64,000 bases of DNA. It comes from Candidatus Lustribacter sp. (GTDB lineage Bacteria > Vulcanimicrobiota > Vulcanimicrobiia > Vulcanimicrobiales > Vulcanimicrobiaceae). Positions 193 through 23,571 of the stretch are shown piece by piece; position 1 is the first letter of the stretch, and each line of letters begins with the position of its first letter. The position numbers were made by a program, and so were the translations under genes. The stretch covers positions 832,001 through 896,000 of the forward strand of contig OZ255842.1 in assembly GCA_965277805.1 (NCBI GenBank), read 5' to 3'. Below the pieces are notes generated by a model, which made no database searches, was not told the origin of the DNA, and saw only the letters and a program-made list of their open reading frames with translations.

Positions 193-1380
193 ATGCAAAA
201 AGGGCGCGAGATCACGCGCGGCAAGACCAAGATCCTCTACGAAGCCGATGGTCAGCCCGATTTGGCCGTCATTCAGCAGATGGACGCGATCACGGCCGGC
301 GACGGCGCGCGGCGCAACGAGATCGAAGGCAAGGGACGCATTGCGGCCAAAACGACCGCGCGCGTATTCCGGCTCTTGAACCTGTGCGGCGTGCCTACCC
401 ACTACATCAGCGGCGGCGAAGACGACGACAACAACGAGATGCTCGTGCGCCGCGCGCAAATGATTCCGCTCGAAGTCGTGACGCGCGGCGTTGCGGCGGG
501 TTCGTTCGTCAAGCGCAAAGCCGGCGTCGCGCGGGGCGCGATCCTCGTGCCGCGGATCGTCGAGTTCTTCCTCAAGGACGACGCCAATCACGATCCGCTG
601 ATCGAGCCGGATGCGATCATCGGGCAGAACATCGCGACGCCGCAAGAGCTGGGCGTGATGAGCGAAATCGCTCGCATCGTGTACGAGATCCTCGCGCATG
701 CCTGGCGCCGCCACGACACGCTGCTGGTCGACATGAAGATCGAGTTCGGCCGCGTCGCCTCCGGCGAGCACAAGGGCCAGCTCGTGGTCGCCGACGTGAT
801 CGACAACGACGCCTGGCGCGTGTGGCCGCAGGGCCGCGAAGAGCTGATGCTCGACAAGCAGATGTACCGCAACCTGCCCAACGTCACCGACGCCGATCTG
901 GCGACGATCAAAGCCAACTACGAACAGGTGGCCGAGATCGTCGGCATGTTCCCGCTGATGCGGCCCGGCATGGTGGCGGTAATCGCCGACGGTCCCGAGT
1001 TCGTCGAGCGGGCCTCCGAGATCGCCCGCGCGTTGAGCGGCTTCGGCTTGCCCGCCGTGCGCCACGTCGCCTCGGCGGTGCGCACGCCGGGCTACGTGCT
1101 GCAACTCGTGACGCAGATCGACGCCACGTTCGCCCGCGCGCTGATCGTGACGGTCGGCTCGGGCGACGGTGCGCTGGCGAACATGATCGAGTATGCAACG
1201 GCCACGCCGGTCGTGCGTGCGCCCGCGACGGCCGACGTGAACCAGGTTGCGCTGCAGTGCGCGAAAGCGTTCTCGCTCGAGGATACGATCGTGTACGGCC
1301 GCGTGCTGCTCGTACAAGCGAACACGCGCTCCACGGTGCTGCAAGCCGACGCCACGTTGAACCAGCTCCCGACCGCGTGA
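193..1380 (+). CDS. purC: SAICAR synthetase fused to a degenerate PurE-like domain (PAICS-like architecture)
   Basis: GKTK, DAITAGDG, DMKIEFG and DVIDNDAWRVWP motifs; C-terminal ~140 aa PurE-like (VASAVRTP, TPVV). Confidence 0.9.
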   Translation: MQKGREITRGKTKILYEADGQPDLAVIQQMDAITAGDGARRNEIEGKGRIAAKTTARVFRLLNLCGVPTHYISGGEDDDNNEMLVRRAQMIPLEVVTRGVAAGSFVKRKAGVARGAILVPRIVEFFLKDDANHDPLIEPDAIIGQNIATPQELGVMSEIARIVYEILAHAWRRHDTLLVDMKIEFGRVASGEHKGQLVVADVIDNDAWRVWPQGREELMLDKQMYRNLPNVTDADLATIKANYEQVAEIVGMFPLMRPGMVAVIADGPEFVERASEIARALSGFGLPAVRHVASAVRTPGYVLQLVTQIDATFARALIVTVGSGDGALANMIEYATATPVVRAPATADVNQVALQCAKAFSLEDTIVYGRVLLVQANTRSTVLQADATLNQLPTA

Positions 1381-3683
1381 ACGAAACCCTCGACCGCGAT
1401 ACCGAACGCCTGATCGAGGAGCGCAAGCGCATCGGCGTCGCGCTTTCGCCGGACGAAGTGCGCGCGATCGTCGCGCACCTCGGCCGCATCCCGACCGATA
1501 CCGAGCTGTTCGCGTTCGACGCGCAGTGGAGCGAGCATTGCTCGTACAAGTCGAGCCGCCACTTTCTGCGCCGCTTGCCGACCGACGGGCCGACCGTGAT
1601 GCAAGGGCCGGCCGAAGACGCCGGTATCCTGCACTTGGGAACGTGGGAGGGCGAACGCTACGGCGTCGTCATCGCGCACGAGTCGCACAATCATCCCTCG
1701 CAAGTCGTGCCGTTCGAGGGCGCGGCGACCGGCGTCGGCGGGATCGTGCGCGACGTGCTGTGCATGGGCGCGGAGGTGATCGGCATCGCCGATCCGCTGC
1801 GGTTCGGCAGGCTCGAGGATCCGCACTGCCGGTACGTGGCGCAGAGCGTCGTCGACGGCATTGCGGCCTACGGCAACGCGATCGGCGTGCCGAACCTGGG
1901 CGGCGACGTCTACATCGACGAGTCGTTCGACGACAACGTGCTGGTCAACGTGGTCGCGCTCGGGCTCGTCAAAGAGCGCGAGATCATCCACTCGTTCGCG
2001 CCGCCGAACTCGATCGGCTACGACATCGTGCTCGTCGGCAAGGCCACCGACCGCAGCGGCTTCGGCGGCGCCTCGTTCTCCTCGCTGACGCTCGACGACG
2101 CCGATGCGGAAGCGAATAAAGGCGCGGTGCAAGTGCCCGATCCGTTCCTCAAGAACGTGATCATGCGCGCTTCGTATAAGGTGTTCGCCGAACTGCGCCG
2201 GCTCGGCATCGAGGCCGGCTACAAGGATCTCGGCGCGGGCGGATTCGCGGGCTGCAGCGCGGAGCTCTGTGCGGCCGGCGGGGTGGGCGCCGAAGTGGAA
2301 CTCGACCGCGTGCCGGTGTCGCAACGCGATCTGCCGCCCGCGGTCATCGCGATCGGCGAGACGCAAGAGCGCTTGTGCTGGATCGTGCCGCCGTCGTTCA
2401 CGCCGCTGCTGCTCGCCATTTATAACGAAGAGTTTTCGCTGCCGCGCATTTCGCGTTCGGCCGCGGCTGCCATCGTCGGCAAGGTGGTCGATGGATCGCG
2501 TTACGTCGCGCGCCACCGCGGCGAGGTCGTGATGGACGTCGATCTCGACTTCCTGACCGGCGGGGTCCGGTACAACCGGCCCTACACGATCGCGTTGCCG
2601 AATCCCGTGCCGCAAACGGCGCCGCTGCCGCGCTTCGGTGACGCGGGGACCGCGCTCGATGCGCTGCTCGCGCATCGCGACGTCGCCTCGCGGCGTTCGA
2701 TCTTCGAGCGTTACGACGGCGTCGTGCGCGGCACGACCGCGATCCCGCTCGGCGCCGCCGACGCGGGCGTGATCTCCCCGATTCCGGGTGCTCCGCTGGC
2801 CGTCGCGCTCGCGGTCGCCGGCAACCCCCGCTATGGGAAGATCGATCCGCAATTAGCGGCCGAACATGCGGTGCTCGAGGCCGTGCGCAACGTCGTTGCA
2901 GTCGGTGCGCGGCCGCTCGGGCTCACCGACTGTCTGAACTTCGGCGATCCGACCGATCCGGAACACCTCGGCGCGATGGTCGCCGCGATCGACGGCCTCG
3001 CGTATGCGGCGCGCCGCTTCGGCACGCCCTACGTCTCGGGTAACGTCAGCCTCTACAACCAGTCGAAGTCGGGCCGCACCGTCGCACCGTCGCCGATCGT
3101 TGCGTGCGTGGGCGGGATCGAGAACATCGCGCAGACCGCCAGCATGGCGTTCAAGCGGGCGGGTTCGGCGCTCTACTTCGTCGGCCGGCCGGAAGAACGC
3201 ACCGGCGGTTCCGTCTACGCGGATTTGCTCGGGATCGCGAACGCGATACTGCCCACGATCAGCTACGATCGCGTCGAGCGCGAGATCGCGCTGCTGCTGG
3301 CGGCGTACGCGGACGACCTCGTGCTGGCTGCCCACGACATTTCCGACGGCGGCGCGCTCACCGCGCTCGCCAAGATGGCGTTCGCGACCCAGAGCGGCGC
3401 GCGCATCGGCATGAAACTCAGCGAGTCCCCGCTGGACGGGCGCGCGGGCACCGCCGCCTTCACCGAAACGTGCGGCTTCATCGTCGAAGTCGGCGACGCG
3501 CCGAAGTTCGAAGCGCTCGCGCAAACACACGGTGCGGACGCGCTGCGCATCGGCGAAACGACGGCGGCCTATACGTTCGTGTTTGCGGGCGGCATCGAAC
3601 GCCCGCTCGACGTTCTTTACGAAACATGGTCGGCGCCGTTGCGCGACTTCTACGCACCGGCGTCCGTCGCAGGTGCGGCTTAG
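1377..3683 (+). CDS. purL: FGAM synthase subunit PurL (small type)
   Basis: GTG start overlapping the purC stop; WSEHCSYKS, HESHNHPS, GAATGVGG, DCLNFG, SGNVS and HDISDGG motifs. Confidence 0.95.
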   Translation: MNETLDRDTERLIEERKRIGVALSPDEVRAIVAHLGRIPTDTELFAFDAQWSEHCSYKSSRHFLRRLPTDGPTVMQGPAEDAGILHLGTWEGERYGVVIAHESHNHPSQVVPFEGAATGVGGIVRDVLCMGAEVIGIADPLRFGRLEDPHCRYVAQSVVDGIAAYGNAIGVPNLGGDVYIDESFDDNVLVNVVALGLVKEREIIHSFAPPNSIGYDIVLVGKATDRSGFGGASFSSLTLDDADAEANKGAVQVPDPFLKNVIMRASYKVFAELRRLGIEAGYKDLGAGGFAGCSAELCAAGGVGAEVELDRVPVSQRDLPPAVIAIGETQERLCWIVPPSFTPLLLAIYNEEFSLPRISRSAAAAIVGKVVDGSRYVARHRGEVVMDVDLDFLTGGVRYNRPYTIALPNPVPQTAPLPRFGDAGTALDALLAHRDVASRRSIFERYDGVVRGTTAIPLGAADAGVISPIPGAPLAVALAVAGNPRYGKIDPQLAAEHAVLEAVRNVVAVGARPLGLTDCLNFGDPTDPEHLGAMVAAIDGLAYAARRFGTPYVSGNVSLYNQSKSGRTVAPSPIVACVGGIENIAQTASMAFKRAGSALYFVGRPEERTGGSVYADLLGIANAILPTISYDRVEREIALLLAAYADDLVLAAHDISDGGALTALAKMAFATQSGARIGMKLSESPLDGRAGTAAFTETCGFIVEVGDAPKFEALAQTHGADALRIGETTAAYTFVFAGGIERPLDVLYETWSAPLRDFYAPASVAGAA

Positions 3684-4480
3684 TGTCGCGCGTCGCCGTC
3701 GTCGTCTTTCCCGGCACCAATAGCGAAGCCGAAACGCAGCGCGCGCTCGTCGCGGCCGGCACCGATGCGGAAATCGTGCACTGGAGCCGCGGTTCGGCCG
3801 CGCTGCGCGCGTTCGACGCGTACGTCTTGCCCGGCGGCTTCGCCTACGAAGACCGCGTGCGCGCCGGCGCCGTCGCCGCGCACGATGAAGTGATGGACGC
3901 GGTCGTCGAGGGCGCGCAGGCCGGCAAGTTCGTGATCGGGATCTGCAACGGCGCGCAAGTGCTGCTCGAAGCGGGGCTCGTGCCCGGCACGGGACCGCTG
4001 CGCCGCCCAACCGCCGCCTTCGCGCCGAATACGAGCGGCAAATTCATGTCGGTGCACGTCTTCGTCAAACTTGCGGTGTCGCACACGCGCGTTCCGCTGC
4101 TGGCGGGCCTGCCCGACGGAGCGGTGCTGCCGGCGTGGGCATCGCACGGTGAGGGGCGGTTGGCGGCGCCCGATGACGAACTGGATCGGATGGAACACAA
4201 CGGGCACGTCGCGTTCGTGTACTGCAACGCGCGCGGCGAGCGGGTTCCCGCGCCCAACGGCTCGGCGCGCGGCGTCGCCGGCCTCACGAACGTTGCGGGC
4301 AACGTGCTGGCGCTCATGCCGCATCCCGAGCGCGACGCCTGGACCTTCATGCATCGCGACAACGACCCGGAGAAACTGGCAGCGCGCGGCAACGTACAGG
4401 CGATGCTTGCGCCGTCGGGCGGCACGGCGTTTTTCCAAGCCTTCGCTGTGGGCCTGGCCGCGCGGCGGCTCATGCGATGA
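3683..4480 (+). CDS. purQ: FGAM synthase glutaminase subunit PurQ
   Basis: GTG start; VVFPGTN, LPGGF, GICNGAQ and MPHPER motifs (catalytic triad intact). Confidence 0.95.
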   Translation: MSRVAVVVFPGTNSEAETQRALVAAGTDAEIVHWSRGSAALRAFDAYVLPGGFAYEDRVRAGAVAAHDEVMDAVVEGAQAGKFVIGICNGAQVLLEAGLVPGTGPLRRPTAAFAPNTSGKFMSVHVFVKLAVSHTRVPLLAGLPDGAVLPAWASHGEGRLAAPDDELDRMEHNGHVAFVYCNARGERVPAPNGSARGVAGLTNVAGNVLALMPHPERDAWTFMHRDNDPEKLAARGNVQAMLAPSGGTAFFQAFAVGLAARRLMR

Positions 4481-4926
4481 GCGAGATCATCGAGCGCGCG
4501 TACGTCGTGACGCTGACGATTCCCGATAACGAGGCCTTCACCGCCCTCACGACGCTTGCCCGCATCGGCCTCGCCGTCGAGACGGCCGTCCGCTCCGACG
4601 TCTGGATCGCGAGCGTGGAAGCCGAGCACGCCCTGGCGCTCGACGGGACGATCACCACGATCGAGACCGTCTACAACCCAAACAAGCATCGCCTCGAGGT
4701 GCGCGAAGACGCCCGGCCGCGCTCCGGCGAGGTATGGATCACCGCTCATGACGAAACGCCTGCGATTACCATCGCGGGCCGAACCGTCGACGGTGTCCGG
4801 GGGATCGTGCGCCGCACGTCGTGGCGGCTGCTCGATCAAAACGGGGCCGACGTCCCGGCAGCCGTGCTCGATCGCGCGACCGAATCTTTCCTCTGCAATC
4901 CCGCGTTTCAAAAGGCAATACGATGA
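4477..4926 (+). CDS. purS: PurS-like protein, about double length (tandem domains)
   Basis: Overlaps the purQ stop; 149 aa with two NP motifs (VYNPNKH, LCNPAFQ) and a PDNEA motif resembling PurS DP. Confidence 0.55.
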   Translation: MSEIIERAYVVTLTIPDNEAFTALTTLARIGLAVETAVRSDVWIASVEAEHALALDGTITTIETVYNPNKHRLEVREDARPRSGEVWITAHDETPAITIAGRTVDGVRGIVRRTSWRLLDQNGADVPAAVLDRATESFLCNPAFQKAIR

Positions 4927-6002
4927 CGATGATGGTTCAGCCGTTCCTCCAGGGTGCTACGAGCGAACGGGACTCGTCGGAATTTTATACGATCGCCACG
5001 CTGGGCTCGCATTCGGCGCTGCAGATTCTCAAGGGCGCGCGCGATGAGGGCTTCAAGACGCTCGCTATCGCGAGTCCCGATACGGAGCGGTTGTACAAAT
5101 CGTTCGGCTTCATCGACGAAGTCATCACGATTCAGAAGTACTCCGAGTTCATGGACCTCGTGCCGGAACTCGAGAAGCGCAAGATCATCATCGTGCCGCA
5201 CGGATCGTTCGTGGCGTATCTCTCGCTCGACGATCACAAGAAGATGTCGATTCCCTACTTCGGGAACAAAGCCGTGCTCGATTGGGAAGCGAGCCGCGAA
5301 CTGCAGCGTCAGTGGCTGACGCGCGCCGGCCTCAAGGTACCGCGTCAGTTCCGCACCGGTGCCGAGATCGACCGGCCGGTCATCGTGAAGCTCTACGGCG
5401 CCCAGGGCGGCAAGGGCTACATGTTCTTGCGCAACTCGCAAGATTTCGATGAGCGCGCCGGCTTGCTCGCGCGGCAAGACTACATTTTGCAAGAGTACGT
5501 GATCGGCGTGCCGTTCTACATCCACTACTTCTACTCGCCGCTGACCGGGAAGCTCGAGATCATGTCGATGGACAGGCGCTACGAGACGAACGTCGATTCA
5601 CTCGGCCGCATTCCGTCGCGCGCGCAGGAAGGGATGGACATCGATCCGTCCTACGTCGTGGTCGGCAACTCGCCGCTCAGCCTGCGCGAATCGATGCTCG
5701 CCGAAGCCTACCGCATGGGCGAAGACGTCGTGCGCGTCAGCCAAGAGATCTGCGGTCCGAAGGGCCTCTTCGGCGCGTTCTGCATCGAGACGATCATCAC
5801 GCCCGACGCGCAGTTCTATATCATGGAAGTTTCTGCGCGCATCGTTGCGGGAACGAACCTGTTCATTGACGGGTCGCCGTACTCGTACCTGAACTACAGC
5901 GAGCCGATGTCGACCGGGCGCCGGATCGCCCGCGAGATCAAGAATGCGCTGCTCTCCAATTCACTTAATGCGGTCCTGGACGATTCCACGCAAGTTTCGT
6001 AA
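4923..6002 (+). CDS. purP: Formate-dependent FAICAR synthetase (archaeal-type ATP-grasp)
   Basis: IATLGSHSALQI, PHGSFVAY, YFGN, DRRYETN, EVSARIVAGTN and MSTGRRIAREIK motifs. Confidence 0.9.
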   Translation: MTMMVQPFLQGATSERDSSEFYTIATLGSHSALQILKGARDEGFKTLAIASPDTERLYKSFGFIDEVITIQKYSEFMDLVPELEKRKIIIVPHGSFVAYLSLDDHKKMSIPYFGNKAVLDWEASRELQRQWLTRAGLKVPRQFRTGAEIDRPVIVKLYGAQGGKGYMFLRNSQDFDERAGLLARQDYILQEYVIGVPFYIHYFYSPLTGKLEIMSMDRRYETNVDSLGRIPSRAQEGMDIDPSYVVVGNSPLSLRESMLAEAYRMGEDVVRVSQEICGPKGLFGAFCIETIITPDAQFYIMEVSARIVAGTNLFIDGSPYSYLNYSEPMSTGRRIAREIKNALLSNSLNAVLDDSTQVS

Positions 6003-7083
6003 CGTCGCTGCCGCCATCGCGCTGGCGGCTCTGGTTCCCATCGCGGCGCAAGCCACGTTGCAGACGGACCCCAACGCGCTCACCCGCACGATGAAGGCCG
6101 CCTTCGATCGGGGCGTTGCGAACGGCTGGCACTTTGCCGACGACGTGTATTATTTCTCGACCGTCCTCGACGCCGGCCGGGCCTACGACCTCGTCCGCCG
6201 CGACGACCCCGATAACCTCAAGCTGGAAGGCACCACGCTCGACATCGCCGCCAAGCTGCATTACGACCCGCTGATCAACCGGGACGCTGCCGAGTGGTAC
6301 GTCCGCGAGGCAGCCGCTGCGTACGCCGAAGATCCGGTGCGCGGTCCGGCGGCCAAAGCGCTGCTGCTCAAGCTCGAGCTCGACGATGCTAGTCCGGCGC
6401 GCCTCGCGCAGGACGGTGACGCCGATGCCACGCTCAACGCGACGGGCGCGCCGAATGACGTCGAGGCACTGCTCGAACAAGTGGACGCCGATTTGCGCGC
6501 CTACCTGATCACGAACGACACACATTACCGTTCGCTGGCGCTCTTGCGCGCGGCGCAGCCGGGGTTCCCGATCGGGCTCGTGCCCGACGACACCGGGAAG
6601 CCGCTATGGGCGGCAGCGGAAGCGGCGCGTAACGGCACGGCCGGCTACAGCGACGTCGACCATCAGGCGGCCGTTGCGATGTACTCGCACAAAGCCGCGG
6701 CGAAGGTGTTGCCGACGATCGGGCGCGTGCTCTCGCACAACGCCTACCTCGTGATTACGGCGCCGGCCGACGAGTACTTCGGCCAGACGAAACTCTCGCC
6801 GATCGGCGTCCGGAACGAGCTGGCCCGCATCGGCAAGTACCTCGACGCGGGCTGGGGCAACCGGATGACGAAGGACACGCTCTGGGTGATCGACTCGCTC
6901 GAGGACTGGCAGCACCAGTACCCGCGCGATTACGAGCTCCCGCGCCTCTTGCTGCAGACATATAAAACGCTGGGGCGCATGGACTCTCCCGAAGCCGAGA
7001 AAGCCGAAGCCGACGTGCGCCGAACCCTCACGGTCGACTACAACGGAACGACCGAAGCCCGCTCGATCTTGATGCCGGGATGA
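5968..7083 (+). CDS. Secreted, probably helical hypothetical protein inside the pur operon
   Basis: Signal-peptide-like RKFRNVAAAIALAALVPIAAQA; overlaps both flanking purP genes; start uncertain (5944 or 5968). Confidence 0.7.
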   Translation: MRSWTIPRKFRNVAAAIALAALVPIAAQATLQTDPNALTRTMKAAFDRGVANGWHFADDVYYFSTVLDAGRAYDLVRRDDPDNLKLEGTTLDIAAKLHYDPLINRDAAEWYVREAAAAYAEDPVRGPAAKALLLKLELDDASPARLAQDGDADATLNATGAPNDVEALLEQVDADLRAYLITNDTHYRSLALLRAAQPGFPIGLVPDDTGKPLWAAAEAARNGTAGYSDVDHQAAVAMYSHKAAAKVLPTIGRVLSHNAYLVITAPADEYFGQTKLSPIGVRNELARIGKYLDAGWGNRMTKDTLWVIDSLEDWQHQYPRDYELPRLLLQTYKTLGRMDSPEAEKAEADVRRTLTVDYNGTTEARSILMPG

Positions 7084-8222
7084 TTTCACCTGGTCCCGGG
7101 CTCGCCAAGACGCTCGCGATGTACGACGCGTCGAACCTGACGCTGTCGTCGATCGGCAGTCATTCCGCACTCGACGTTGCCTCGGGTGCGAAAGCTGCCG
7201 GCTTGCGGAACCTGATCATCACCGAGCGCGGCCGCGAGCGGACGTACACCGAGCACTACGCGGTGCAATCCGATCCTCCACGCGGCTGCGTCGATGCGAC
7301 GATCGTGCTCGAACGCTTCACCGATCTGCTCGATGCGAACGTGCAAGAGAACTTGATCGAGCAGAACGTGATCTTCGTTCCGAACCGTTCGTTTGAAGTG
7401 TACCTGCACCAGAAGTTCTCCTACGACGAGATCGAGCGCGGGATGCGCTGCCTGTTCTTCGGCAACCGGCGTCTGCTGCGCGCTGAAGAACGCGATGAGG
7501 AAAACAACCAGTACACGCTGATGCAGGCGGCGGGCATCGCCTTTCCCAAGCAGTTCGCGCGCGCCGCGGAGATCGACCGGCTCGTCATGGTCAAGGCGCC
7601 GCATGCGAAGATCTCGTTCGAACGCGCGTTCTTTCTCGCGCGCTCACCGGAAGAATTCGCCGCGAAGTCGGAGCACCTCATCGACGCCGGGATCGTGACG
7701 CGCGAGGGCGTGCGCGGCGCGGTCATCGAGGAATACGCGCTCGGACCGACGGTCAACCTGAATTTCTTCTACTCGCCGCTGCTCGACGAACTGGAACTCC
7801 TCGGCACCGACACGCGCCGCCAGACGAACCTCGACGGCTTGCGCGGTCTGCCGTTCTCGCAAGCGCAGCAACTCGCCGACGAGCCGGTGCGGATGGAAGA
7901 AGCGGGCCACATCGCAACGACCTTGACCGAGTCGATGCTGGAGAAGGCGTTCGAGATGGGCGAAAGGTTCGTGCGTGCGACGCAGTACGCCGATCCGCCG
8001 GGCATCATCGGGCCGTTTGCGCTGCAGTGCGTGATCGTTGCCGGACCGCCGAAGCGCTTCATCTGCTACGACGTGTCGATGCGGATCCCGGGATCGCCGG
8101 GCACGCGCTACACGCCGTACACCGCCTATCGCTGGGGGCGCGACGTTTCGGTCGGCGAGCGCATTGCGATGGAAGTCGTGATGGCGCGCGACCAGAATCG
8201 CCTCGGCGAGGTCTTGACCTGA
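7080..8222 (+). CDS. Second PurP-family ATP-grasp protein (DUF1246/DUF1297 type)
   Basis: IGSHSALDV, FVPNRSF, FFGNRRLLRAEER, FERAFF, DTRRQTN, IIGPFALQ and GERIAME motifs. Confidence 0.88.
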   Translation: MISPGPGLAKTLAMYDASNLTLSSIGSHSALDVASGAKAAGLRNLIITERGRERTYTEHYAVQSDPPRGCVDATIVLERFTDLLDANVQENLIEQNVIFVPNRSFEVYLHQKFSYDEIERGMRCLFFGNRRLLRAEERDEENNQYTLMQAAGIAFPKQFARAAEIDRLVMVKAPHAKISFERAFFLARSPEEFAAKSEHLIDAGIVTREGVRGAVIEEYALGPTVNLNFFYSPLLDELELLGTDTRRQTNLDGLRGLPFSQAQQLADEPVRMEEAGHIATTLTESMLEKAFEMGERFVRATQYADPPGIIGPFALQCVIVAGPPKRFICYDVSMRIPGSPGTRYTPYTAYRWGRDVSVGERIAMEVVMARDQNRLGEVLT

Positions 8223-8243: not shown

Positions 8244-9806
8244 ATGGCCGCCGTGACCTCGCGCACCGGAACCGTCGTCATCCTCGATTTCGGTTCGCAG
8301 GTGAGTCAGCTGATCGCGCGGCGCGCGCGCGAATCGAATGTCTATTCGGAGTTGCTGCCGTTCGATACGCCGTGGGCGGAGATCGCCAAGCGCGAACCGG
8401 CGGCGATCGTGCTCAGCGGCGGCCCGGAAAGCACGCTCGGGCCCGACGCGCCCGATTGCGCGCCGGAAGTGTTCACCAGCGGCCTGCCGTTGCTCGGCAT
8501 CTGCTACGGCATGCAGCTCGTTGCGAAGAAGCTCGGCGGAACGCTCGTTCCGCTGGCGCACAGCGAGTTCGGTGCGGCGATGCTCACGGTCGATGCGCCC
8601 GAGTGCCCGCTCTTTCTCGGCGTTCCGGCAACGTCGCGCGTGTGGATGTCGCACGGCGACACGGTCACCGCTCCCCCGCCCGGATTCCGCGTCTACGCGC
8701 ACACGGAACGCTCGGCGGTCGCCGCCATCGGCGATGAGGCGCGCCGTATTTACGGCGTGACGTTCCATCCCGAAGTCGTGCACACCGAAGCGGGCACGGC
8801 CATCCTGCAGAATTTTCTGCATCGCGTCGCGGCGATCGTGCCGGCATGGGAAATGGCGTCGTTCGTCGACGATGCGATCGAACGCATCCGCCGCGAAGTC
8901 GGCACGGCCAACGTCATTTGCGCGCTCTCCGGCGGCGTCGACTCGGCCGTTGCGGCTACGCTCGTCTCGCGCGCCATCGGCAAACAGCTCACCTGCATCT
9001 ACGTCGACACGGGCCTGATGCGCAAGGACGAATCGGCCGGCGTGCTCGCTGCGTTTCGCGACATCCTGCACCTCAACGTCATCGCGATCGACGCCGAGGA
9101 ACGCTTTCTCGGGCGTCTCGCCGGCATCACCGATCCCGAAGAGAAGCGCGTGCGGATCGGTCACGAGTTCATTGCGATCTTCGAAGAAGAGTCGAAGAAG
9201 ATCCCCGACGTGCAGTTCCTCGTCCAGGGCACGCTCTATCCCGACGTGATCGAATCGAAGACGCCGGGCTCGAAAGCCGGCCACAAGATCAAGTCGCACC
9301 ACAACGTCGGCGGTTTACCGGAACGGATGGCGTTGGGTTTGATCGAGCCGTTGCGCGAACTCTTCAAGGACGAAGTGCGCAAGGTCGGCTCGGTGCTCGG
9401 TTTGCCCGACGCGATCGTGCAGCGGCAGCCGTTCCCCGGGCCCGGCTTGGCCGTGCGCATCATCGGCGAAGTGAACCGCGAGTCGCTCGCGACCGTGCGC
9501 GCCGCCGACTGGATCGTGACGAGCGAAATCGATGCGGCCACCGATCTGCACCCGCGTCCGTGGCAATACTTCGCCGTGCTCACGCCCGTGCGCAGCGTCG
9601 GCGTGATGGGCGACGGCCGCACCTATGCGAACCTCGTCGGCGTCCGCGCGATCACCTCGGAAGACGGCATGACGGCCGACTGGGCCCGTCTCCCGCACGA
9701 TCTCCTCGCCCGCATCTCCACGCGCATCGTCAACGAGGTCCCCGGCGTCAACCGGGTCGCCTACGACATCACCTCCAAACCGCCCGCAACCGTCGAGTGG
9801 GAATGA
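8244..9806 (+). CDS. guaA: GMP synthase
   Basis: ILDFGSQ, GICYGMQ, FHPEV, SGGVDS, KSHHNVGG and KPPATVEWE motifs. Confidence 0.97.
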   Translation: MAAVTSRTGTVVILDFGSQVSQLIARRARESNVYSELLPFDTPWAEIAKREPAAIVLSGGPESTLGPDAPDCAPEVFTSGLPLLGICYGMQLVAKKLGGTLVPLAHSEFGAAMLTVDAPECPLFLGVPATSRVWMSHGDTVTAPPPGFRVYAHTERSAVAAIGDEARRIYGVTFHPEVVHTEAGTAILQNFLHRVAAIVPAWEMASFVDDAIERIRREVGTANVICALSGGVDSAVAATLVSRAIGKQLTCIYVDTGLMRKDESAGVLAAFRDILHLNVIAIDAEERFLGRLAGITDPEEKRVRIGHEFIAIFEEESKKIPDVQFLVQGTLYPDVIESKTPGSKAGHKIKSHHNVGGLPERMALGLIEPLRELFKDEVRKVGSVLGLPDAIVQRQPFPGPGLAVRIIGEVNRESLATVRAADWIVTSEIDAATDLHPRPWQYFAVLTPVRSVGVMGDGRTYANLVGVRAITSEDGMTADWARLPHDLLARISTRIVNEVPGVNRVAYDITSKPPATVEWE

Positions 9807-11074
9807 GAATTCTCGTGGTCGGTGGCGGCGCTCGTGAAGATGCGCTGTCGTGGAAGCTCGCGGAATCGCCGTCGTGTGAGGCGATCTTCCACGCCCCGGG
9901 CAACGCCGGCACCGCATCGCGCGGAACGAATTTCGCCGACGTTTCGGCTACCGACACGCGCGCGATCCTCGACCGCGCCAAAGCCAACGCCATCGACCTC
10001 ACCGTGGTCGGTCCCGAAACCGCGCTCGCGGCGGGCGTTGCCGATCGTCTGCGCGATGCGGGCCTGAACGTCTTCGGTCCCAACCGTTCCGGCGCACGGC
10101 TCGAGTCGAGCAAGGCGTTCGCCAAACGTTTCATGGAACGTCACGGCATTCCGACCGCGCGTTTCGCCGTCGTCCATTCGCTGGCGGCCGCGCTCAAAGC
10201 GCTCGATCAATTCCCGAACGGCGTGGTGGTGAAAGCCGATGGGCTCGCGGCCGGCAAAGGCGTCGTCGTGTGCGACGATACCGCCGCTGCTTCGAACGTG
10301 CTGCGCGAGTGGTATGAGAAGAATAACGTTCCCGGCGGCGGCACCGACATCGTACTCGAAGAGCGGATGAGCGGTCGCGAGATTTCCGTCTTCGCGATTT
10401 CCGACGGCCGCGCGATGATCCCGATCGCGGCGGCGTGCGATTACAAGCGCGCCGGCGATGACGATCGCGGTCCGAATACGGGCGGCATGGGAGCGTATTC
10501 GCCGCCCTCCGGTTTCCCCGCCAACGTGCTCGAGATCGTCCGCGAGCGCGTGATCGCGCCGGTGCTGCGCGGCTTGCTCGCGGAAGATGAAATCTACCGC
10601 GGCGTGCTCTACGTGGGCCTGATGTGGACCGATAGCGGTCCGCGGGTGGTCGAGTTCAACGCCCGCTTCGGCGATCCGGAAACGCAAGTGATGATGCCGC
10701 GCGTCGGCGGCGACTTCGCGCGCTATCTGGCCAGCGCCGCGGAAGGCGCGATCGAACTCGACGCCGCGCACTTCTCCGACGATGCGTGCGTGGGCGTCAC
10801 GCTCACGACCGACCGCTACCCCTACGAGAACACGAAGATCGCCGGCCTGCCGGCCACGTTGCGGCTGCCCGACCACGTGGCCGTTTTTTGGGGCACGTCG
10901 ACGCGTGAGGGCGACCGCATGTCCTCACCCGGCGGACGGGTCCTCACCGTCACCGCGACGGCGCCGACCGTGGCCGAGGCGCGGACGCGGGCCTACGATG
11001 CGATCGCCCAGCTCAAGCCGCAATTCCCGCCCAACACGCCGCTCGTCTACCGCTCCGACATCGCCCGCCTCTAG
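9803..11074 (+). CDS. purD: Phosphoribosylamine--glycine ligase
   Basis: MRILVVGGGARE, PGNAG, KADGLAAGKG, GPNTGGMGAY and EFNARFGDPE motifs. Confidence 0.97.
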   Translation: MRILVVGGGAREDALSWKLAESPSCEAIFHAPGNAGTASRGTNFADVSATDTRAILDRAKANAIDLTVVGPETALAAGVADRLRDAGLNVFGPNRSGARLESSKAFAKRFMERHGIPTARFAVVHSLAAALKALDQFPNGVVVKADGLAAGKGVVVCDDTAAASNVLREWYEKNNVPGGGTDIVLEERMSGREISVFAISDGRAMIPIAAACDYKRAGDDDRGPNTGGMGAYSPPSGFPANVLEIVRERVIAPVLRGLLAEDEIYRGVLYVGLMWTDSGPRVVEFNARFGDPETQVMMPRVGGDFARYLASAAEGAIELDAAHFSDDACVGVTLTTDRYPYENTKIAGLPATLRLPDHVAVFWGTSTREGDRMSSPGGRVLTVTATAPTVAEARTRAYDAIAQLKPQFPPNTPLVYRSDIARL

Positions 11075-11824: not shown

Positions 11825-13210
11825 ATGTGCGGGATCGCGGCCGTCTATGCGCCAGGGCTCGATGTTGCGCGGCTCGTGTACTTTGGCCTATACGCTTTGC
11901 AGCACCGCGGCCAAGAGAGCGCCGGCATCGCGGTCGGCGACGGCACGACGATGTCGAGCCATCGCGAGATGGGCTTGCTCACTGGTGTCTTCACCGAAGA
12001 GATTCTCGGCCGCCTCAACGGTTACGTTGCGATGGGGCACACGCGGTACTCGACGACCGGTTCGTCGGTCATCGTCAACGCACAGCCGTTCATGGAAAAT
12101 ACCGACATCGGCCCGTTCGCGTTCGGCCACAACGGCAATCTGACCAACGCCGACGAGATGCTGGCGGCGCTGCCGTCGACGGTCCGGCTCGATGCGACCT
12201 CCGATAGCGAAATTCTGGCGAAGACGATCGCGCTCGGCACCGGTGCGACGCTGGTCGAACGCATCAAGAGCGCGATGGCTCTCGCCGAGGGCGCGTATTC
12301 GGTCGTCATGACCACGCCCGATTCCATCATCGCGTTTCGCGATCCGTGGGGCGTGCGGCCACTGTGCATCGGCACCTACGGCGACGGCGGCTACATGATC
12401 GCATCAGAATCGTGCGCGATGGCCACGGTCGGCGCGCAGTACTTACGCGAGATCGAAGCCGGCGAAATCGTGGTCGTCGATCGCAACGGCATGCGCAGCG
12501 AACACATCGAGAAGGTCGAGCCGCCGGCGCTCTGCATGTTCGAGTACATCTACTTCGCGCGGCCCGATTCGGTGCTCTCCGGACGTTCGATCTACATGGC
12601 ACGCTACGAGATGGGACGTGCTCTCGCTCGCGAGCATCCGGTCGACGCCGACGTCGTCATGGCGGTGCCCGATTCGGCCATTCCGGGTGGCATCGGCTAC
12701 GCGGCCGAAAGCGGCTTGCCGTACGTCGAAGGGCTGATCAAGAACCGCTACATCGGGCGTACGTTCATCAGCCCGGATCAGAACGTGCGCAATCAAGGCG
12801 TGCAGCTGAAATTCAACCCGATCGTTGAGAACCTGCGCGGCCAGCGCGTCGTCGTGGTCGACGATTCGATCGTGCGCGGCACCACCACGCCGCGCATCGT
12901 CTCGCTGCTGCGCGATGCGGGCGCGCGCGAAGTGCACTTGCGCATCACCTCGCCGCCGATCGTGCATCCCTGTTATCTCGGCGTCGACATGGCGACCTAC
13001 AAAGAACTGATTGCGGCCAACCTGACGGTCGATCAGATCCGCGCGCGCGTCGGAGCCGATTCGCTCGGCTATCTCAGCGTGGATCGCCTGGTCGAGTCGA
13101 CCGGACGCGAACGGTCCGATTTCTGCCTCGGGTGTCTGACCGGAGCGTATCCAAGCGCGCCCGTCGTCGCAATGCCGGGCGCCGATCGCCAACCCGCGCT
13201 CAAGCTCTAG
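11825..13210 (+). CDS. purF: Amidophosphoribosyltransferase
   Basis: N-terminal MCG, LQHRGQE, GHTRYST, HNGN, VDDSIVRGTT motifs and Fe-S cysteines (FCLGC). Confidence 0.97.
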   Translation: MCGIAAVYAPGLDVARLVYFGLYALQHRGQESAGIAVGDGTTMSSHREMGLLTGVFTEEILGRLNGYVAMGHTRYSTTGSSVIVNAQPFMENTDIGPFAFGHNGNLTNADEMLAALPSTVRLDATSDSEILAKTIALGTGATLVERIKSAMALAEGAYSVVMTTPDSIIAFRDPWGVRPLCIGTYGDGGYMIASESCAMATVGAQYLREIEAGEIVVVDRNGMRSEHIEKVEPPALCMFEYIYFARPDSVLSGRSIYMARYEMGRALAREHPVDADVVMAVPDSAIPGGIGYAAESGLPYVEGLIKNRYIGRTFISPDQNVRNQGVQLKFNPIVENLRGQRVVVVDDSIVRGTTTPRIVSLLRDAGAREVHLRITSPPIVHPCYLGVDMATYKELIAANLTVDQIRARVGADSLGYLSVDRLVESTGRERSDFCLGCLTGAYPSAPVVAMPGADRQPALKL

Positions 13211-21006: not shown

Positions 21007-22494
21007 TCAGTTCTTGGCGAGATCTTCGACTAGGGCGACGAAGGCGCGCACCGGCGTTCCGGTCGGGCCTTTGGCTTGGAAGGACGATTCGTTATCGAGG
21101 TACGCGGTACCGGCGATGTCGAGGTGAATCCACGGCACGTCGGCGACGAAGTTCTTGAGGAATGCGGCAGCCGTCTCCGCCCCGCCGGGCCGTCCGCCGG
21201 TGTTCTTGATGTCGGCGATATCGCTCTTGATCTGACGGTCCCAGTCATCGTAGAGGGGCAGGCGCCAGTAGCGTTCGCCGACGTCGCCGACGATCTTGAG
21301 AAACCGGTCGGCGAAGGCGTCGTCGTTCGACATCACGCCGCTCGCCGCGTGACCGAGGGCGACGACACACGCGCCGGTGAGGGTCGCGGCGTCGACGATC
21401 TTCGTTGCGCCCAATTCGCGCGCGTAGCATAGCGCGTCGGCGAGAATGAGACGGCCCTCGGCGTCGGTGTTGATCACCTCGATCGTCTTGCCGTTCATCG
21501 CGCGCAAGATATCGCCGGGCTTCATCGCCTTCGGTCCGAGGAGGTTCTCGCTCGACGGAACGACGCCGATGACGTTGAGTTTCGGTTTCAGCTTACCGAT
21601 CGCGTACATCGCCGCGATGACGCCCGCGCCGCCGCACATGTCGTACTTCATCTCGTGCATCGCCTCGGCCGGCTTGATCGAGATGCCGCCCGAATCGAAG
21701 GTGAGCCCCTTGCCGACGAGCGCGAGCACTTCTTTGCTCGAGGGATCGCCGCGGTAGGTCATCACCGAGAGCGTCGCCGGTTCGTCCGAGCCGAGCGAGA
21801 CGCCGAGCAGCGAGCCCATTTTCTTTTCTTTCATGCGGGCTTCGTCGAGCATGTCGAATTCGAGGCCGGCTTCGGCGGCGAGTTCTTTGGCGCGCGCCGC
21901 CATGTGCGTCGGCGTCATGTCGTTGCCGGGCGTGAGCGCCATCAGGCGCGCGAAGTTGACCGCTTCGCCGATCACCGTTCCACGGGCGACGCCCGCGTCG
22001 AGCGCGGCGCGATCGAACCCGCCTGCGAAGATCGCGACCGTTTGCGCCATCACCGGCTTGTCGGGTTCGGTGCGATACGTCGTACCGTCGAGCGTTGCCG
22101 TGATGGCGCCTTCGGTTAGGGCCGAGGCGGCGAGCAGCGTGTCAGCCTTCGCTTCGTCGGGCAGCACGAAGGCGAGCGCGGTGTAGTTGCGCTTCCCGAG
22201 CGTCCGCACCGCGGTGCCGCCAAATTTTGCCAGGCTCTGGGGCGTGAACTTCGCGCGGTCGCCGAGCCCGACCAGCGCGACGCGGCGGTAGGGCGCGTTT
22301 TTCGCGTGCACCACTGCCAGCTCGTTCGGCTTCCCTGCGATCTCGCCCGATTCCAGTACGTCCGCGAGCGCGCCGCCCAGTGCCGTATCGATCTCCGCGG
22401 CGATGCCGTCGAGACGTTTGTCGGCGAAGACGGGGATGACGAGCGCGCCGGTCGCGTACGACGCCGGAGCATCGGACGTGATGCGAACCTGCAT
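21007..22494 (-). CDS. pepA: Leucyl aminopeptidase (M17)
   Basis: VGKGLTFDSGG, MKYDM, NTDAEGRL, ATLTG and HLDIAG motifs. Confidence 0.95.
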   Translation of the reverse strand: MQVRITSDAPASYATGALVIPVFADKRLDGIAAEIDTALGGALADVLESGEIAGKPNELAVVHAKNAPYRRVALVGLGDRAKFTPQSLAKFGGTAVRTLGKRNYTALAFVLPDEAKADTLLAASALTEGAITATLDGTTYRTEPDKPVMAQTVAIFAGGFDRAALDAGVARGTVIGEAVNFARLMALTPGNDMTPTHMAARAKELAAEAGLEFDMLDEARMKEKKMGSLLGVSLGSDEPATLSVMTYRGDPSSKEVLALVGKGLTFDSGGISIKPAEAMHEMKYDMCGGAGVIAAMYAIGKLKPKLNVIGVVPSSENLLGPKAMKPGDILRAMNGKTIEVINTDAEGRLILADALCYARELGATKIVDAATLTGACVVALGHAASGVMSNDDAFADRFLKIVGDVGERYWRLPLYDDWDRQIKSDIADIKNTGGRPGGAETAAAFLKNFVADVPWIHLDIAGTAYLDNESSFQAKGPTGTPVRAFVALVEDLAKN

Positions 22495-22552
22495 GAGCTT
22501 CCTTTCGATGGTGGAACGGACGAATGCGTATGGTGAGGGGTACGCCCAGCAA

Positions 22553-23569: not shown

Positions 23570-23571
23570 CG

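What the first reader, a model, noticed from the sequence alone, without database searches (positions are those of the whole stretch)
4923..8222. Two archaeal-type PurP paralogues in a bacterial pur operon (formate-driven, folate-independent formylation)
Seen: two distinct PurP-family genes, one canonical (EVSARIVAGTN) and one divergent (PNRSF, DVSMRIPGSPG). No purH, purO or purT lies in the window. Established: PurP replaces the folate-dependent AICAR transformylase in archaea, many of which carry a second paralogue of unsettled function. Inference: this bacterium formylates AICAR with formate plus ATP. The second copy is either a partner subunit or a PurT-like GAR formylase backing up PurN. 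With the PAICS-like fusion, tandem PurS and GNAT::PurN, this is my strongest candidate for an undescribed mosaic purine pathway.
Basis: partly seen in the sequence, partly recalled or inferred. Interest (0 to 1): 0.8.

Follow-up and report, generated by a model that had tools for sequence, protein, structure and literature searches.

The report
Archaeal PurP gene pair in Eremiobacteria
A soil or peat bacterium of the class Eremiobacteria carries, inside its purine-synthesis operon, the two diverged PurP enzyme genes that travel as a pair in many archaea and whose joint job is still unsolved, although it also has the normal bacterial enzyme PurH.

Summary
Window 4923-6002 and 7080-8222 encode two PurP-family ATP-grasp proteins that are 32% identical. 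A conserved unknown gene (about 5968-7083) lies between them.

They are not a local duplication. PurP1 is the archaeal cluster Ib (PurP II) type. PurP2 is the cluster II (PurP III) type, with His in place of Asn258 and a phosphate loop two residues longer.

The pair was found in 143 of 143 sampled genomes of the class and in 0 of 57 from the rest of the phylum. It forms one clade nested among archaeal pairs, so it was acquired once and then inherited vertically.

The genome has an intact bifunctional PurH elsewhere, plus PurN, PurU and folate synthesis. It has no PurT, PurO or Fhs.

My best reading is that the two proteins work together on AICAR with formate and ATP, in parallel to PurH. This is unproven.

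Published surveys that I read found PurP only in Archaea. This scan has already noted the pair in CPR bacteria. I rate it a new member of a known kind, of moderate interest.

The parts
4923..6002 (+). PurP1: PurP cluster Ib / 'PurP II' type ATP-grasp protein, 359 aa. Its start overlaps the stop of the upstream 149-aa ORF by 4 nt.
   Evidence: Pfam DUF1246 + DUF1297. The best solved relative is P. furiosus PF1517 (2r84) at 340.7 bits, then MJ0136 (2r7k) at 298.7 bits. It has the cluster I markers His30, Ser95, Q161-G-G-K-G165, Asn249, Ser257 and Arg306. It falls in the cluster I half of the tree. dN/dS against the closest relative is 0.067.
5968..7083 (+). ORF-X: a conserved hypothetical protein with a signal-peptide-like N-terminus, lying between the two purP genes. 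The start is 5944 or 5968. It overlaps the purP1 end by 35-59 nt and the purP2 start by 4 nt.
   Evidence: GC3 is 0.84. It has no Pfam or NCBIfam match. Homologues at 36-96% identity lie upstream of purP2 in about 45 relatives' loci. The protein atlas gives only Vulcanimicrobiota hypothetical clusters, best score 0.88. The junction sequences were read.
7080..8222 (+). PurP2: PurP cluster II / 'PurP III' type ATP-grasp protein, 380 aa.
   Evidence: Pfam DUF1246 + DUF1297. The best solved relative is MJ0136 at 200.5 bits, then PF1517 at 142.3 bits. It has His277 where cluster I has Asn258, and the loop K177-ISFE-R182 is two residues longer than R161GGRG165. His28, Ser104, Ser285 and Arg335 are kept. 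The AF2 model has pLDDT 90.2 and matches 2r7k/2r7m at TM 0.87, rmsd 2.3 A. It falls in the cluster II half of the tree. dN/dS against the closest relative is 0.116.
193..1380 (+). Context: purC fused to a weak PurE-like C-terminal domain.
   Evidence: Pfam SAICAR_synt 3.8e-58. AIRC scores 29.3 bits, just under the cut-off of 30. NCBIfam purC scores 147.7 bits.
1400..4480 (+). Context: purL (about 1400-3683) and purQ (about 3680-4480). The start coordinates are approximate.
   Evidence: Pfam FGAR-AT_linker, AIRS and AIRS_C for purL; GATase_5 for purQ.
8244..11074 (+). Context: guaA (8244-9806) and purD (about 9803-11074), directly downstream of purP2.
   Evidence: Pfam GATase + GMP_synt_C for guaA; GARS_N/A/C for purD.
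11825..13210 (+). Context: purF.
   Evidence: Pfam GATase_6/7 + Pribosyltran.
22403..24690 (+). Context: purM (22403-23569) and a GNAT::PurN fusion (about 23566-24690).
   Evidence: Pfam AIRS and AIRS_C for purM. For the fusion, Formyl_trans_N scores 124.7 bits and Acetyltransf_1 scores 22.4 bits against a cut-off of 20.7.

Best explanation
The two genes are the bacterial copy of the ancient archaeal 'PurP II + PurP III' (cluster Ib + cluster II) gene pair. The ancestor of the class Eremiobacteria acquired the pair once, as an adjacent two-gene unit, from an archaeon. The nearest sampled pair is from a Micrarchaeota genome. The pair has been inherited vertically since then.

I infer that the two proteins work together, probably as a hetero-oligomer built like the solved PurP hexamers. 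The module would be formate- and ATP-dependent, act on AICAR, and give FAICAR, which the cyclohydrolase domain of PurH then closes to IMP. It would run in parallel to the folate-dependent AICARFT domain of PurH.

PurP1 carries the complete catalytic motif set of characterised PurP. PurP2 keeps the ATP-grasp core and the ribonucleotide-phosphate and formyl contacts. It has a remodelled phosphate loop and His in place of the Asn that contacts the AICAR carboxamide, so it looks like a specialised partner rather than a second copy of the same enzyme.

What is shown: family, cluster type, fold, distribution, single origin, pairing and purifying selection. What is inferred: substrate, formate use, physical association and the division of labour.
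For: Family and type:
- Pfam and NCBIfam matches and solved relatives.
- The diagnostic residues of Brown 2011 (passages read), mapped.
- The tree splits clusters I and II at 100*, with PurP1 in I and PurP2 in II (FastTree, 156 rows).

The pair behaves as one unit:
- Both copies are present in 41 of 41 relatives.
- The pair is in 143 of 143 sampled class genomes and 0 of 57 genomes of other families of the phylum.
- In 46 of 46 Eremiobacterota loci that hold both genes, the order is I then II on one strand.
- In 49 of 54 other loci, mostly archaeal, the two genes lie less than 150 nt apart.
- In 5 of 5 archaeal genomes where cluster II stood alone within 4 kb, a second copy lies elsewhere in the genome.
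- In the concatenated tree the 14 Eremiobacterota pairs form one clade (100*). It branches f3, then f2, then f1, as the taxonomy does.

Both genes are under purifying selection. dN/dS is 0.067 and 0.116 against the closest relative. Cluster II has 71 invariant columns across 41 sequences.

PurP2 keeps Lys172, Glu217-Glu218, Asp331, Arg335, His28 and Ser285.

Formate context: PurU is present (329.1 bits against a cut-off of 286). There is no PurT above cut-off (best 171.7 against 502, and that hit is the PurK next to PurE). There is no Fhs. The pair is therefore the only recognisable formate-using purine enzyme.

Literature: II and III always co-occur in archaea; neither P. furiosus protein was active alone; a heterohexamer was proposed (Cruz 2019, passages read).

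Complex prediction gave weak support only.
- The score was 0.34 (runs 0.35, 0.29, 0.34), and the best of 3 controls was 0.00.
- That mark was reached by 58 of 80 solved complexes and 2 of 110 mismatched pairs. At 0.60 or under it was reached by only 7 of those 80 and by both mismatches that passed.
- The runs agree in at least 85% of contacts, and the partner's pLDDT is at least 83.
- My own alignments were used, so the counts hold only roughly.
- Homologous homo-hexamers are solved (2r7k, 2r84), so the pass may reflect likeness only.
Against: - No activity, binding or expression data exist for any bacterial copy.
- An intact PurH is present in 41 of 41 relatives and in 10 of 10 other pair-bearing genomes that I checked. 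The pair is therefore not needed for the step I assign to it, and its retention beside PurH is unexplained.
- Folate synthesis markers are present, with two DHPS copies, so a folate-sparing need is not evident.
- Per Brown 2011 and Cruz 2019, cluster Ib PF1517 binds ATP and AICAR but showed no FAICAR synthetase activity. I could not read Zhang 2008 to see whether the two proteins were ever mixed.
- In this genus and most of its family the two genes are no longer adjacent. ORF-X, and in others cydAB as well, lies between them. That is unusual for an obligate complex.
- Both proteins score below NCBIfam's equivalog cut-offs.
- The complex score is weak and may come from memory of solved homo-oligomers.
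Confidence: 0.5

Rival explanations
1. PurP2 (cluster II) is the long-missing IMP cyclase. PurP1 would make FAICAR from AICAR, formate and ATP, and PurP2 would close the ring to IMP, with or without ATP. The pair would then be a self-contained, folate-independent AICAR-to-IMP module.
For: - PurP2 keeps the residues that hold the 5'-phosphate and the formyl group (His28, Ser104, Ser285, Arg335). It replaces the carboxamide-contacting Asn with an invariant His277, a possible general base. It has also lost the Gly-rich phosphate loop.
- In Cruz 2019 Table 1 (read), 37 of 61 archaeal OTUs with PurP II + III have no PurH, PurJ or PurO, while all 25 OTUs with PurP I have PurO.
- Brown 2011 raised the idea.
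- FAICAR did not cyclise without enzyme, and the crenarchaeal cyclohydrolase was still unidentified in 2019 (PMC6797443, passages read).
- A two-step module would explain why the two genes are transferred together.
Against: - A full PurH with its cyclohydrolase domain sits beside the pair in 41 of 41 relatives and in 10 of 10 other pair-bearing genomes. A cyclase is therefore redundant there.
- Brown 2011 called the phyletic pattern imperfect.
- On this reading cluster Ib alone should make FAICAR, which was not seen for PF1517 (second-hand).
- The conserved ATP-grasp nucleotide-site residues of PurP2 (Lys172, Glu217/218, Asp331) are not needed by a simple cyclohydrolase.
Confidence: 0.2
2. The pair does something other than the ninth purine step. 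It could use another acyl donor or another ribonucleotide acceptor, or handle AICAR (ZMP) from histidine synthesis or salvage. That would explain why it coexists with PurH everywhere I looked.
For: - It coexists with PurH in 41 of 41 and 10 of 10 genomes.
- The P. furiosus members showed no FAICAR synthetase activity. According to Cruz 2019, Zhang 2008 suggested another formyl source.
- K. cryptofilum keeps the pair without a purine pathway (Brown 2011).
- Both proteins score below the NCBIfam equivalog cut-offs.
Against: - The pair is embedded between purC-purL-purQ and guaA-purD-purF, with overlapping stop and start codons.
- PurP1 keeps every AICAR, formyl and ATP-loop residue named for MJ0136.
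- S. solfataricus extracts put formate into IMP from ZMP (Brown 2011).
Confidence: 0.12
3. PurP1 alone is the working FAICAR synthetase, and PurP2 is a non-catalytic or regulatory relic.
For: PurP1 has the full motif set. PurP2 lacks the Gly-rich loop and evolves faster: 62-88% identity against 72-96% within the class, and dN/dS of 0.116 against 0.067.
Against: - PurP2 is kept in 143 of 143 class genomes.
- It has 71 invariant columns across archaea and bacteria, including active-site positions.
- It always accompanies a cluster I copy (Cruz 2019).
- PF1517 alone was inactive (second-hand).
Confidence: 0.08
4. One reading: PurP2 is a PurT-like, formate-dependent GAR formylase that backs up PurN.
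For: The genome has no PurT but has PurU, which makes formate. Both enzymes are ATP-grasp formate ligases. The Archaeoglobi lack PurN and PurT but have the pair (Brown 2011).
Against: - PurP2 matches only PurP models in NCBIfam and no PurT model at E <= 0.001.
- It keeps the AICAR 5'-phosphate and formyl contacts.
- It is tied to a cluster Ib copy, not to the absence of PurN. GNAT::PurN is present here.
- Other archaea without PurN and PurT have no PurP (Methanomicrobiales) or, as I infer from the clustering described, only a single cluster Ia copy (M. kandleri) (Brown 2011).
Confidence: 0.05

Closest known systems
Archaeal PurP cluster Ib + cluster II pair (PurP II + PurP III), e.g. P. furiosus PF1517 (PDB 2r84-2r87) and PF0421; adjacent pairs in Sulfolobales, Pyrobaculum and K. 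cryptofilum (Brown 2011, PMC3261824; Cruz 2019, PMC6486802)
   Same: The same two paralogue types, by diagnostic residues and by tree. The same strict co-occurrence and frequent adjacency. The same location among purine genes. The function of the pair is equally unknown.
   Different: The host is a free-living bacterial class with large (2-5.5 Mb), high-GC genomes. In this genus the genes are separated by an inserted gene. The sequences are about 42-57% (PurP1) and 44-54% (PurP2) identical to the sampled non-Eremiobacterota copies, which are mostly archaeal but include two CPR bacterial loci.
Methanosarcinales arrangement: full-length PurH plus PurP II plus PurP III (10 archaeal OTUs in Cruz 2019, Table 1)
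   Same: The pair coexists with an intact bifunctional PurH and with PurN.
   Different: This is a bacterium, and I found no PurO here. Whether both routes are used is unknown in both cases.
M. jannaschii PurP (MJ0136, cluster Ia / PurP I; PDB 2r7k-2r7n), the only PurP with shown formate- and ATP-dependent FAICAR synthetase activity
   Same: The fold and domain architecture match. PurP1 shares His27, Ser94, the GG loop, Asn258, Ser266 and Arg314. The PurP2 model superposes at TM 0.87.
   Different: MJ0136 works alone and is accompanied by PurO. Here there are two diverged paralogues, neither of the Ia type, and no PurO.
PurP II + III pairs in CPR / Patescibacteria bacteria
   Same: A bacterial host, a purine-operon context and PurH often alongside. 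I confirmed the pair in three CPR-type genomes that have bL19 and lack eS4.
   Different: The acquisitions were independent. CPR pairs group with Woesearchaeota and Nanoarchaeota pairs (99*). One clade holding Eremiobacteria and CPR together is rejected (p-AU 2.6e-8). Eremiobacteria are free-living and not genome-reduced.
PurT (formate-dependent GAR transformylase)
   Same: An ATP-grasp ligase that uses formate through formyl phosphate. In E. coli it is fed by PurU (recalled).
   Different: A different family. PurP2 gives no PurT match. The best PurT-model hit in the genome is PurK.

Membership tests
PurP family (Pfam DUF1246 + DUF1297, ATP-grasp) | Both Pfam domains, in order, above the gathering scores | tested here: met
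   PurP1 scores 141.8 and 224.1 bits. PurP2 scores 117.3 and 187.4 bits. The cut-offs are 25 and 23.8.
PurP family (Pfam DUF1246 + DUF1297, ATP-grasp) | The PurP fold | tested here: met
   Tested for PurP2 only. The AF2 model has pLDDT 90.2. Its top PDB matches are 2r7m/2r7k/2r7l (TMq 0.87, rmsd 2.3 A), then 2r84 and 2pbz. The next folds are biotin carboxylases at about 1e-11. PurP1 was not folded; it is related by sequence to 2r84 (340.7 bits).
PurP family (all clusters, Brown 2011) | His27 and Arg314 (formyl contacts) conserved | tested here: met
   His30 and Arg306 in PurP1; His28 and Arg335 in PurP2. They are invariant in both 41-row alignments.
PurP cluster Ia/Ib (PurP I/II) | Asn at Mj position 258, and a five-residue (K/R)GG(K/R)G loop at 161-165 | tested here: met
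   PurP1 has Asn249 and Q161-G-G-K-G165. The first loop residue is Gln rather than Lys or Arg; the loop length and both Gly are kept.
PurP cluster II (PurP III) | His at Mj position 258 | tested here: met
   PurP2 has His277, invariant in 41 of 41 cluster II rows.
PurP cluster II (PurP III) | A loop two residues longer than the cluster I P-loop, without the glycines | tested here: met
   K177-I-S-F-E-R182 aligns to R161-G-(gap)(gap)-G-R-G. Glu181-Arg182 is invariant in the cluster.
PurP cluster II (PurP III) | Falls in the cluster II clade and co-occurs with exactly one cluster Ib copy | tested here: met
   The I/II split is supported at 100*. The genome has two DUF1297 genes, one of each type.
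Formate--phosphoribosylaminoimidazolecarboxamide ligase, EC 6.3.4.23 (NCBIfam equivalogs NF009778-NF009783) | A score above the curated equivalog cut-off | tested here: not met
   PurP1 scores 381.8 against 590. PurP2 scores 239.5 against 556. Public records nevertheless carry this name.
Formate--phosphoribosylaminoimidazolecarboxamide ligase, EC 6.3.4.23 | Formate- and ATP-dependent conversion of AICAR to FAICAR | not testable with these tools
   This needs an enzyme assay. It has been shown only for MJ0136 (Brown 2011 and Cruz 2019).
PurT (TIGR01142) | A match to the PurT model | tested here: not met
   The NCBIfam scan of PurP2 at E <= 0.001 returned PurP models only. The best PurT-model hit in the genome scores 171.7 against 502 and is PurK.

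The most novel reading that the evidence does not exclude
PurP2 (cluster II / PurP III) is the long-sought missing IMP cyclase of Crenarchaeota, Thaumarchaeota and Pyrococcus. In it an ATP-grasp scaffold has been re-tooled: His replaces the carboxamide-contacting Asn and the phosphate loop is remodelled, so that it closes FAICAR to IMP. The Ib + II pair would then be a portable, folate-independent two-step AICAR-to-IMP module. That would explain why it moves between domains as a unit.
Probability: 0.2. Interest if true: 0.8.

Novelty: new member of a known kind. Interest (0 to 1): 0.5.

Why it matters
PurP has been treated in print as an archaeal signature. The 2019 survey of 1,403 genomes found it in Archaea only. 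What the cluster Ib + II pair does has been open since 2008-2011.

This report shows that a whole class of free-living, mesophilic bacteria has kept the pair since a single transfer, next to an intact PurH. That has two consequences:
- It extends the range of the module beyond Archaea and genome-reduced CPR bacteria.
- It offers non-thermophilic proteins, in a lineage whose phylum has a cultivated representative (search listing only), with which binding, formate use and a possible cyclase role could be tested in E. coli mutants.

It also warns that the database name 'formate--phosphoribosylaminoimidazolecarboxamide ligase' on both genes goes beyond the evidence.

Tried and rejected
- One search failed because my purD coordinates were in the wrong frame. 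I repeated it with whole ORFs.
- The search for homologous proteins with PurP1 listed only close Eremiobacterota relatives (best 120 at 79-94% identity) and gave no outgroups.
- The listing of cluster members on the 10 nearest non-self cluster II representatives gave one NCBI accession and no organisms.
The 7-row alignment A2 worked. Only the best 80 of at least 569 loci were kept, ranked against a Micrarchaeota-like first sequence. The donor lineage is therefore not settled, and other bacterial carriers may be missed.
- Zhang et al. 2008 is not held. Everything I say about the PF1517 and PF0421 assays and hexamers is second-hand, from Brown 2011 and Cruz 2019.
- Supplements are closed. Brown's Additional Files and Cruz's Tables S1, S4 and S5, which list the taxa, were not seen.
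- Rfam found no riboswitch in the window, only 4 tRNAs.
- No RNA holder was listed for the stretch, so I did not lay reads.
- The AU test under the mixture model did not finish in two calls. I reran it with LG+G4 on 25 of the 41 pairs. The group was named after I had seen the tree.
- I looked for the cultivated Vulcanimicrobium among PurP1 loci. It is not among the 80 of 146 that were listed, so its status is unchecked.
- A local tandem duplication is rejected. The paralogues are 32% identical and each sits in a different ancient cluster.
- A binning artefact is rejected. The window lies in a single 5.53-Mb contig. Both genes have the GC3 of their neighbours. The pair lies on megabase contigs in relatives.
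- Folate auxotrophy as the reason for the pair is rejected on one marker: two DHPS copies are present.

Full report
**Observation**

The finding's coordinates hold three + strand genes, not two.
- PurP1 lies at 4923-6002 (359 aa).
- PurP2 lies at 7080-8222 (380 aa).
- ORF-X, an unannotatable gene, lies between them from 5944 or 5968 to 7083. Its GC3 is 0.84.

Both PurP proteins carry Pfam DUF1246 + DUF1297 far above the gathering scores. In NCBIfam they match only PurP models, at 381.8 and 239.5 bits. Those scores are below the curated equivalog cut-offs of 590 and 556.

The two proteins are 32% identical. They are the only two DUF1297 genes in the 5.53-Mb single-contig genome.

Stop and start codons overlap by 4 nt at the upstream-ORF/purP1 junction and at the ORF-X/purP2 junction. 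guaA starts 21 nt after the purP2 stop codon.

The surrounding + strand genes are purC::purE-like, purL, purQ, a 149-aa ORF, then [purP1, ORF-X, purP2], then guaA, purD, a Bax1-I membrane protein, purF, a TPR/RimK-like protein and a HAD hydrolase. purM and GNAT::purN lie 14 kb further on.

**Which PurPs they are**

Brown et al. 2011 (PMC3261824; passages read) divide archaeal PurP-like proteins into cluster Ia/Ib and cluster II.
- Cluster I has Asn at M. jannaschii position 258 and a (K/R)GG(K/R)G loop at 161-165.
- Cluster II has His at 258 and a loop two residues longer without the glycines.
- His27 and Arg314 are conserved in all.

Cruz et al. 2019 (PMC6486802; abstract, section 13 part 1 and passages) call these groups PurP I, II and III.

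I mapped the positions through the HMMER alignments to 2r7k.

| M. jannaschii position | PurP1 | PurP2 |
|---|---|---|
| His27 | His30 | His28 |
| Ser94 | Ser95 | Ser104 |
| R161GGRG165 loop | Q161GGKG165 | K177ISFER182 (two residues longer) |
| Asn258 | Asn249 | His277 |
| Ser266 | Ser257 | Ser285 |
| Arg314 | Arg306 | Arg335 |

The 61 full-length representatives from the profile-free search with PurP2 split into the same two motif classes. That search gave 477 hits at E <= 1e-3 among 1.84 billion representatives.

The best solved relative of PurP1 is the cluster Ib protein PF1517 (340.7 bits). For PurP2 the best is MJ0136, at only 200.5 bits.

An AlphaFold model of PurP2 (pLDDT 90.2, pTM 0.89) superposes on MJ0136 at TM 0.87 and rmsd 2.3 A. 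No cluster II structure appeared among the PDB matches.

A 156-row FastTree splits clusters I and II at 100*, with PurP1 and PurP2 on opposite sides. PurP1 is therefore cluster Ib / PurP II, and PurP2 is cluster II / PurP III.

**Rest of the pathway**

| Gene | Result |
|---|---|
| purH | Intact, 526 aa, MGS + AICARFT, at genome position 4.25 Mb |
| purE-purK | Canonical pair at 5.11 Mb |
| PurU | Present, 329.1 bits against a cut-off of 286 |
| DHPS | Two copies |
| PurO | No match |
| Fhs | No match |
| PurT | None above cut-off; best 171.7 against 502, and that hit is PurK |

The absences are for a genome estimated 95% complete, in one contig.

PurH can do both last steps. The finding of PurU without PurT or Fhs does leave the PurP pair as the only recognisable consumer of free formate in purine synthesis.

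**Distribution and origin**

Record titles of close relatives place the window in Eremiobacterota (Vulcanimicrobiota), genus-level Candidatus Lustribacter.

Both copies are present in 41 of 41 relatives, spanning three families and 27 genera.

In an even sample of the phylum (200 genomes besides the window's, at least 85% complete), the pair is in 124 of 124, 3 of 3 and 16 of 16 genomes of the three families of the window's class. It is in 0 of 57 genomes of the 16 other families.

These tallies include unpublished genomes: G015 and G036, and G036 and G182. Without them the counts are 39 of 39 and 141 of 141.

A pattern scan of GTDB species genomes with a cluster II alignment found at least 569 loci. 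The best 80, ranked against a Micrarchaeota-like query, carry almost only archaeal titles: Micrarchaeota, Methanosarcinales/ANME, Thermoplasmatota, Woesearchaeota and Nanoarchaeota.

Five of the 80 carry bacterial titles. I checked their genomes for bL19 and eS4.
- One, titled Desulfobacteria, has eS4 and no bL19, so it is an archaeon.
- Four have bL19 and no eS4: one Peregrinibacteria, one Patescibacteria, one 'bacterium' and one Spirochaetota. In the Spirochaetota record the pair sits on a 1.9-Mb contig, and its cluster I gene is split into two ORFs.

I built a concatenated I+II tree from 41 pairs that I chose out of the 100 loci holding both genes (IQ-TREE quick, LG+C20).
- The 14 Eremiobacterota pairs form one clade (100*). 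It branches f3, then f2, then f1.
- Its sister is a long-branched Micrarchaeota pair (support 94, not starred).
- The CPR pairs sit elsewhere, with Woesearchaeota and Nanoarchaeota (99*).

Forcing Eremiobacteria and CPR into one clade is rejected (lnL lower by 78.6, p-AU 2.6e-8). That test used LG+G4 on 25 of the 41 pairs, and I named the group after seeing the tree.

I conclude that there was one transfer of the pair into the class ancestor, that it was independent of the CPR transfers, and that the donor is unresolved.

**The pair as a unit**

Of 155 fetched loci with any PurP hit, 100 hold both types. The spacing of the two genes is as follows.

| Loci holding both genes | Arrangement | Count |
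|---|---|---|
| Eremiobacterota (46; all I then II on one strand) | Less than 150 nt apart | 6 |
| | About 1.08 kb apart (ORF-X) | 17 |
| | More than 1.5 kb apart | 23 |
| Other, mostly archaeal (54) | Less than 150 nt apart | 49 (36 II then I, 13 I then II) |
| | 150-1500 nt apart | 4 |
| | Farther apart | 1 |

In the one Eremiobacterota locus of the widest class that I opened (L032), ORF-X plus cydA and cydB fill the gap.

In 5 of 5 archaeal genomes where cluster II stood alone within 4 kb, a second, cluster-I-like match lies elsewhere in the genome.

Both genes are under purifying selection. NG86 dN/dS against the closest relative is 0.067 for PurP1 and 0.116 for PurP2. More distant pairs give 0.05-0.30, with dS near saturation.

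Cluster II is strikingly conserved, with 71 invariant columns in 41 rows from archaea and bacteria. The invariant columns include:
- Lys172, Glu217-Glu218 and Asp331, which I take, by general ATP-grasp analogy recalled from memory, to be the nucleotide and Mg site;
- the cluster-specific Glu181-Arg182, His277 and G338-S-P-G341.

In cluster I the last motif reads A-G-T-N.

**Mechanism**

What is shown is identity, fold, origin, pairing and selection. The chemistry is inferred.

The literature that I could read says the following.
- MJ0136 (Ia) is active alone and always comes with PurO.
- PF1517 (Ib) binds ATP and AICAR but, like PF0421 (II), gave no FAICAR synthetase activity.
- Ib and II always co-occur.
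- Cruz et al. speculated on a heterohexamer.
- Brown et al. floated a cyclohydrolase role for one paralogue.
- The crenarchaeal IMP cyclohydrolase was still unidentified in 2019, and FAICAR did not cyclise without enzyme.

My best reading (0.5) is a two-protein, formate- and ATP-dependent AICAR formylation module that feeds the cyclohydrolase domain of PurH.

The one complex prediction gave weak support only.
- The score was 0.34, and the best of 3 controls was 0.00.
- That mark was reached by 58 of 80 solved complexes and 2 of 110 mismatched pairs. At 0.60 or under it was reached by only 7 of the 80 and by both passing mismatches.
- The runs agree in at least 85% of contacts, and the partner's pLDDT is at least 83.
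- My own alignments were used.
- Homologous homo-hexamers are solved, so the pass may be memory of that likeness.

The main rival, and the most novel reading (0.2), is that PurP2 is the missing IMP cyclase.

Against both readings as necessities stands the coexistence with PurH. PurH accompanies the pair in 41 of 41 relatives. It also accompanies it in 10 of 10 other pair-bearing genomes that I checked, 4 bacterial and 6 archaeal. Why both routes are kept is unexplained.

**Novelty**

Cruz et al. 2019 state that PurP homologues were found only in Archaea among 1,403 genomes.

My full-text searches found no paper that describes PurP in Eremiobacterota or other bacteria.
- Searches found none.
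- In one search, none of the 25 listed papers out of 722 holds PurP together with a taxon term.
- In one search, whole-word PurP + Eremiobacterota gave 0 papers.

These searches cover only the held open-access library.

Public records already name the genes. This scan has repeatedly noted the same pair in CPR bacteria on other DNA (AI notes, which I partly re-checked).

I therefore rate the finding as a new member of a known kind. It is of moderate interest, chiefly as a mesophilic, free-living system in which an old open question becomes testable.

Noticed in passing
window 5944/5968-7083 (+): ORF-X is a conserved hypothetical protein with a signal-peptide-like N-terminus, wedged between purP1 and purP2 with overlapping junctions. 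It is conserved at that place across the family at about 36-96% identity. It has no Pfam or NCBIfam match. Its only atlas neighbours are Vulcanimicrobiota hypothetical clusters, with weak TPR leads.
   Followed up: partly
L032:2453-5975: In another Baltobacteraceae-type genome the gap between purP1 and purP2 holds the ORF-X homologue followed by cytochrome bd oxidase subunits I and II (cydAB), all on the same strand. In 23 of 46 Eremiobacterota loci the gap exceeds 1.5 kb. Only L032 was opened.
   Followed up: partly
It has no Pfam match at E <= 0.01. Pfam PurS matches nothing anywhere in the genome at E <= 0.1, although purL and purQ are split and would normally need PurS. The ORF is only a positional candidate for a divergent PurS.
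   Followed up: partly
window 193-1380 (+); genome C1:5112225-5113789: purC is fused to a weak, partial PurE-like domain. AIRC scores 29.3 bits against a cut-off of 30 and matches only profile positions 2-87. A canonical purE-purK pair lies 4.3 Mb away.
   Followed up: partly
window 23566-24690 (+): PurN carries an N-terminal GNAT-like domain.
   Followed up: partly
window 13211-14662 (+): A TPR-repeat protein with a C-terminal RimK-like ATP-grasp domain starts right at the purF stop and is followed by a HAD hydrolase. Its role in the operon is unknown.
   Followed up: no
genome C1:541879-542706: PurU (formyl-THF deformylase) is present, although neither PurT nor Fhs was found. The PurP pair is the only visible purine enzyme that could use its formate.
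   Followed up: partly
L129 (genome G215): The record is titled 'Desulfobacteria bacterium', but the genome has ribosomal protein eS4 and no bL19, so it is probably an archaeon. Several loci with 80-87% identical PurP1 carry non-Eremiobacterota titles (Acidiferrales, Limnocylindria, Armatimonadota, Rhodospirillales, Janthinobacterium). These are likely mislabelled bins; I did not check them.
   Followed up: partly
L160:2975-5125 (genome G219): A genome titled Spirochaetota, with bL19 and no eS4, carries a cluster II gene on a 1.9-Mb contig. The cluster I gene upstream is split into ORFs of 134 and 156 aa. This is either a frameshift, a pseudogene or an assembly error.
   Followed up: partly
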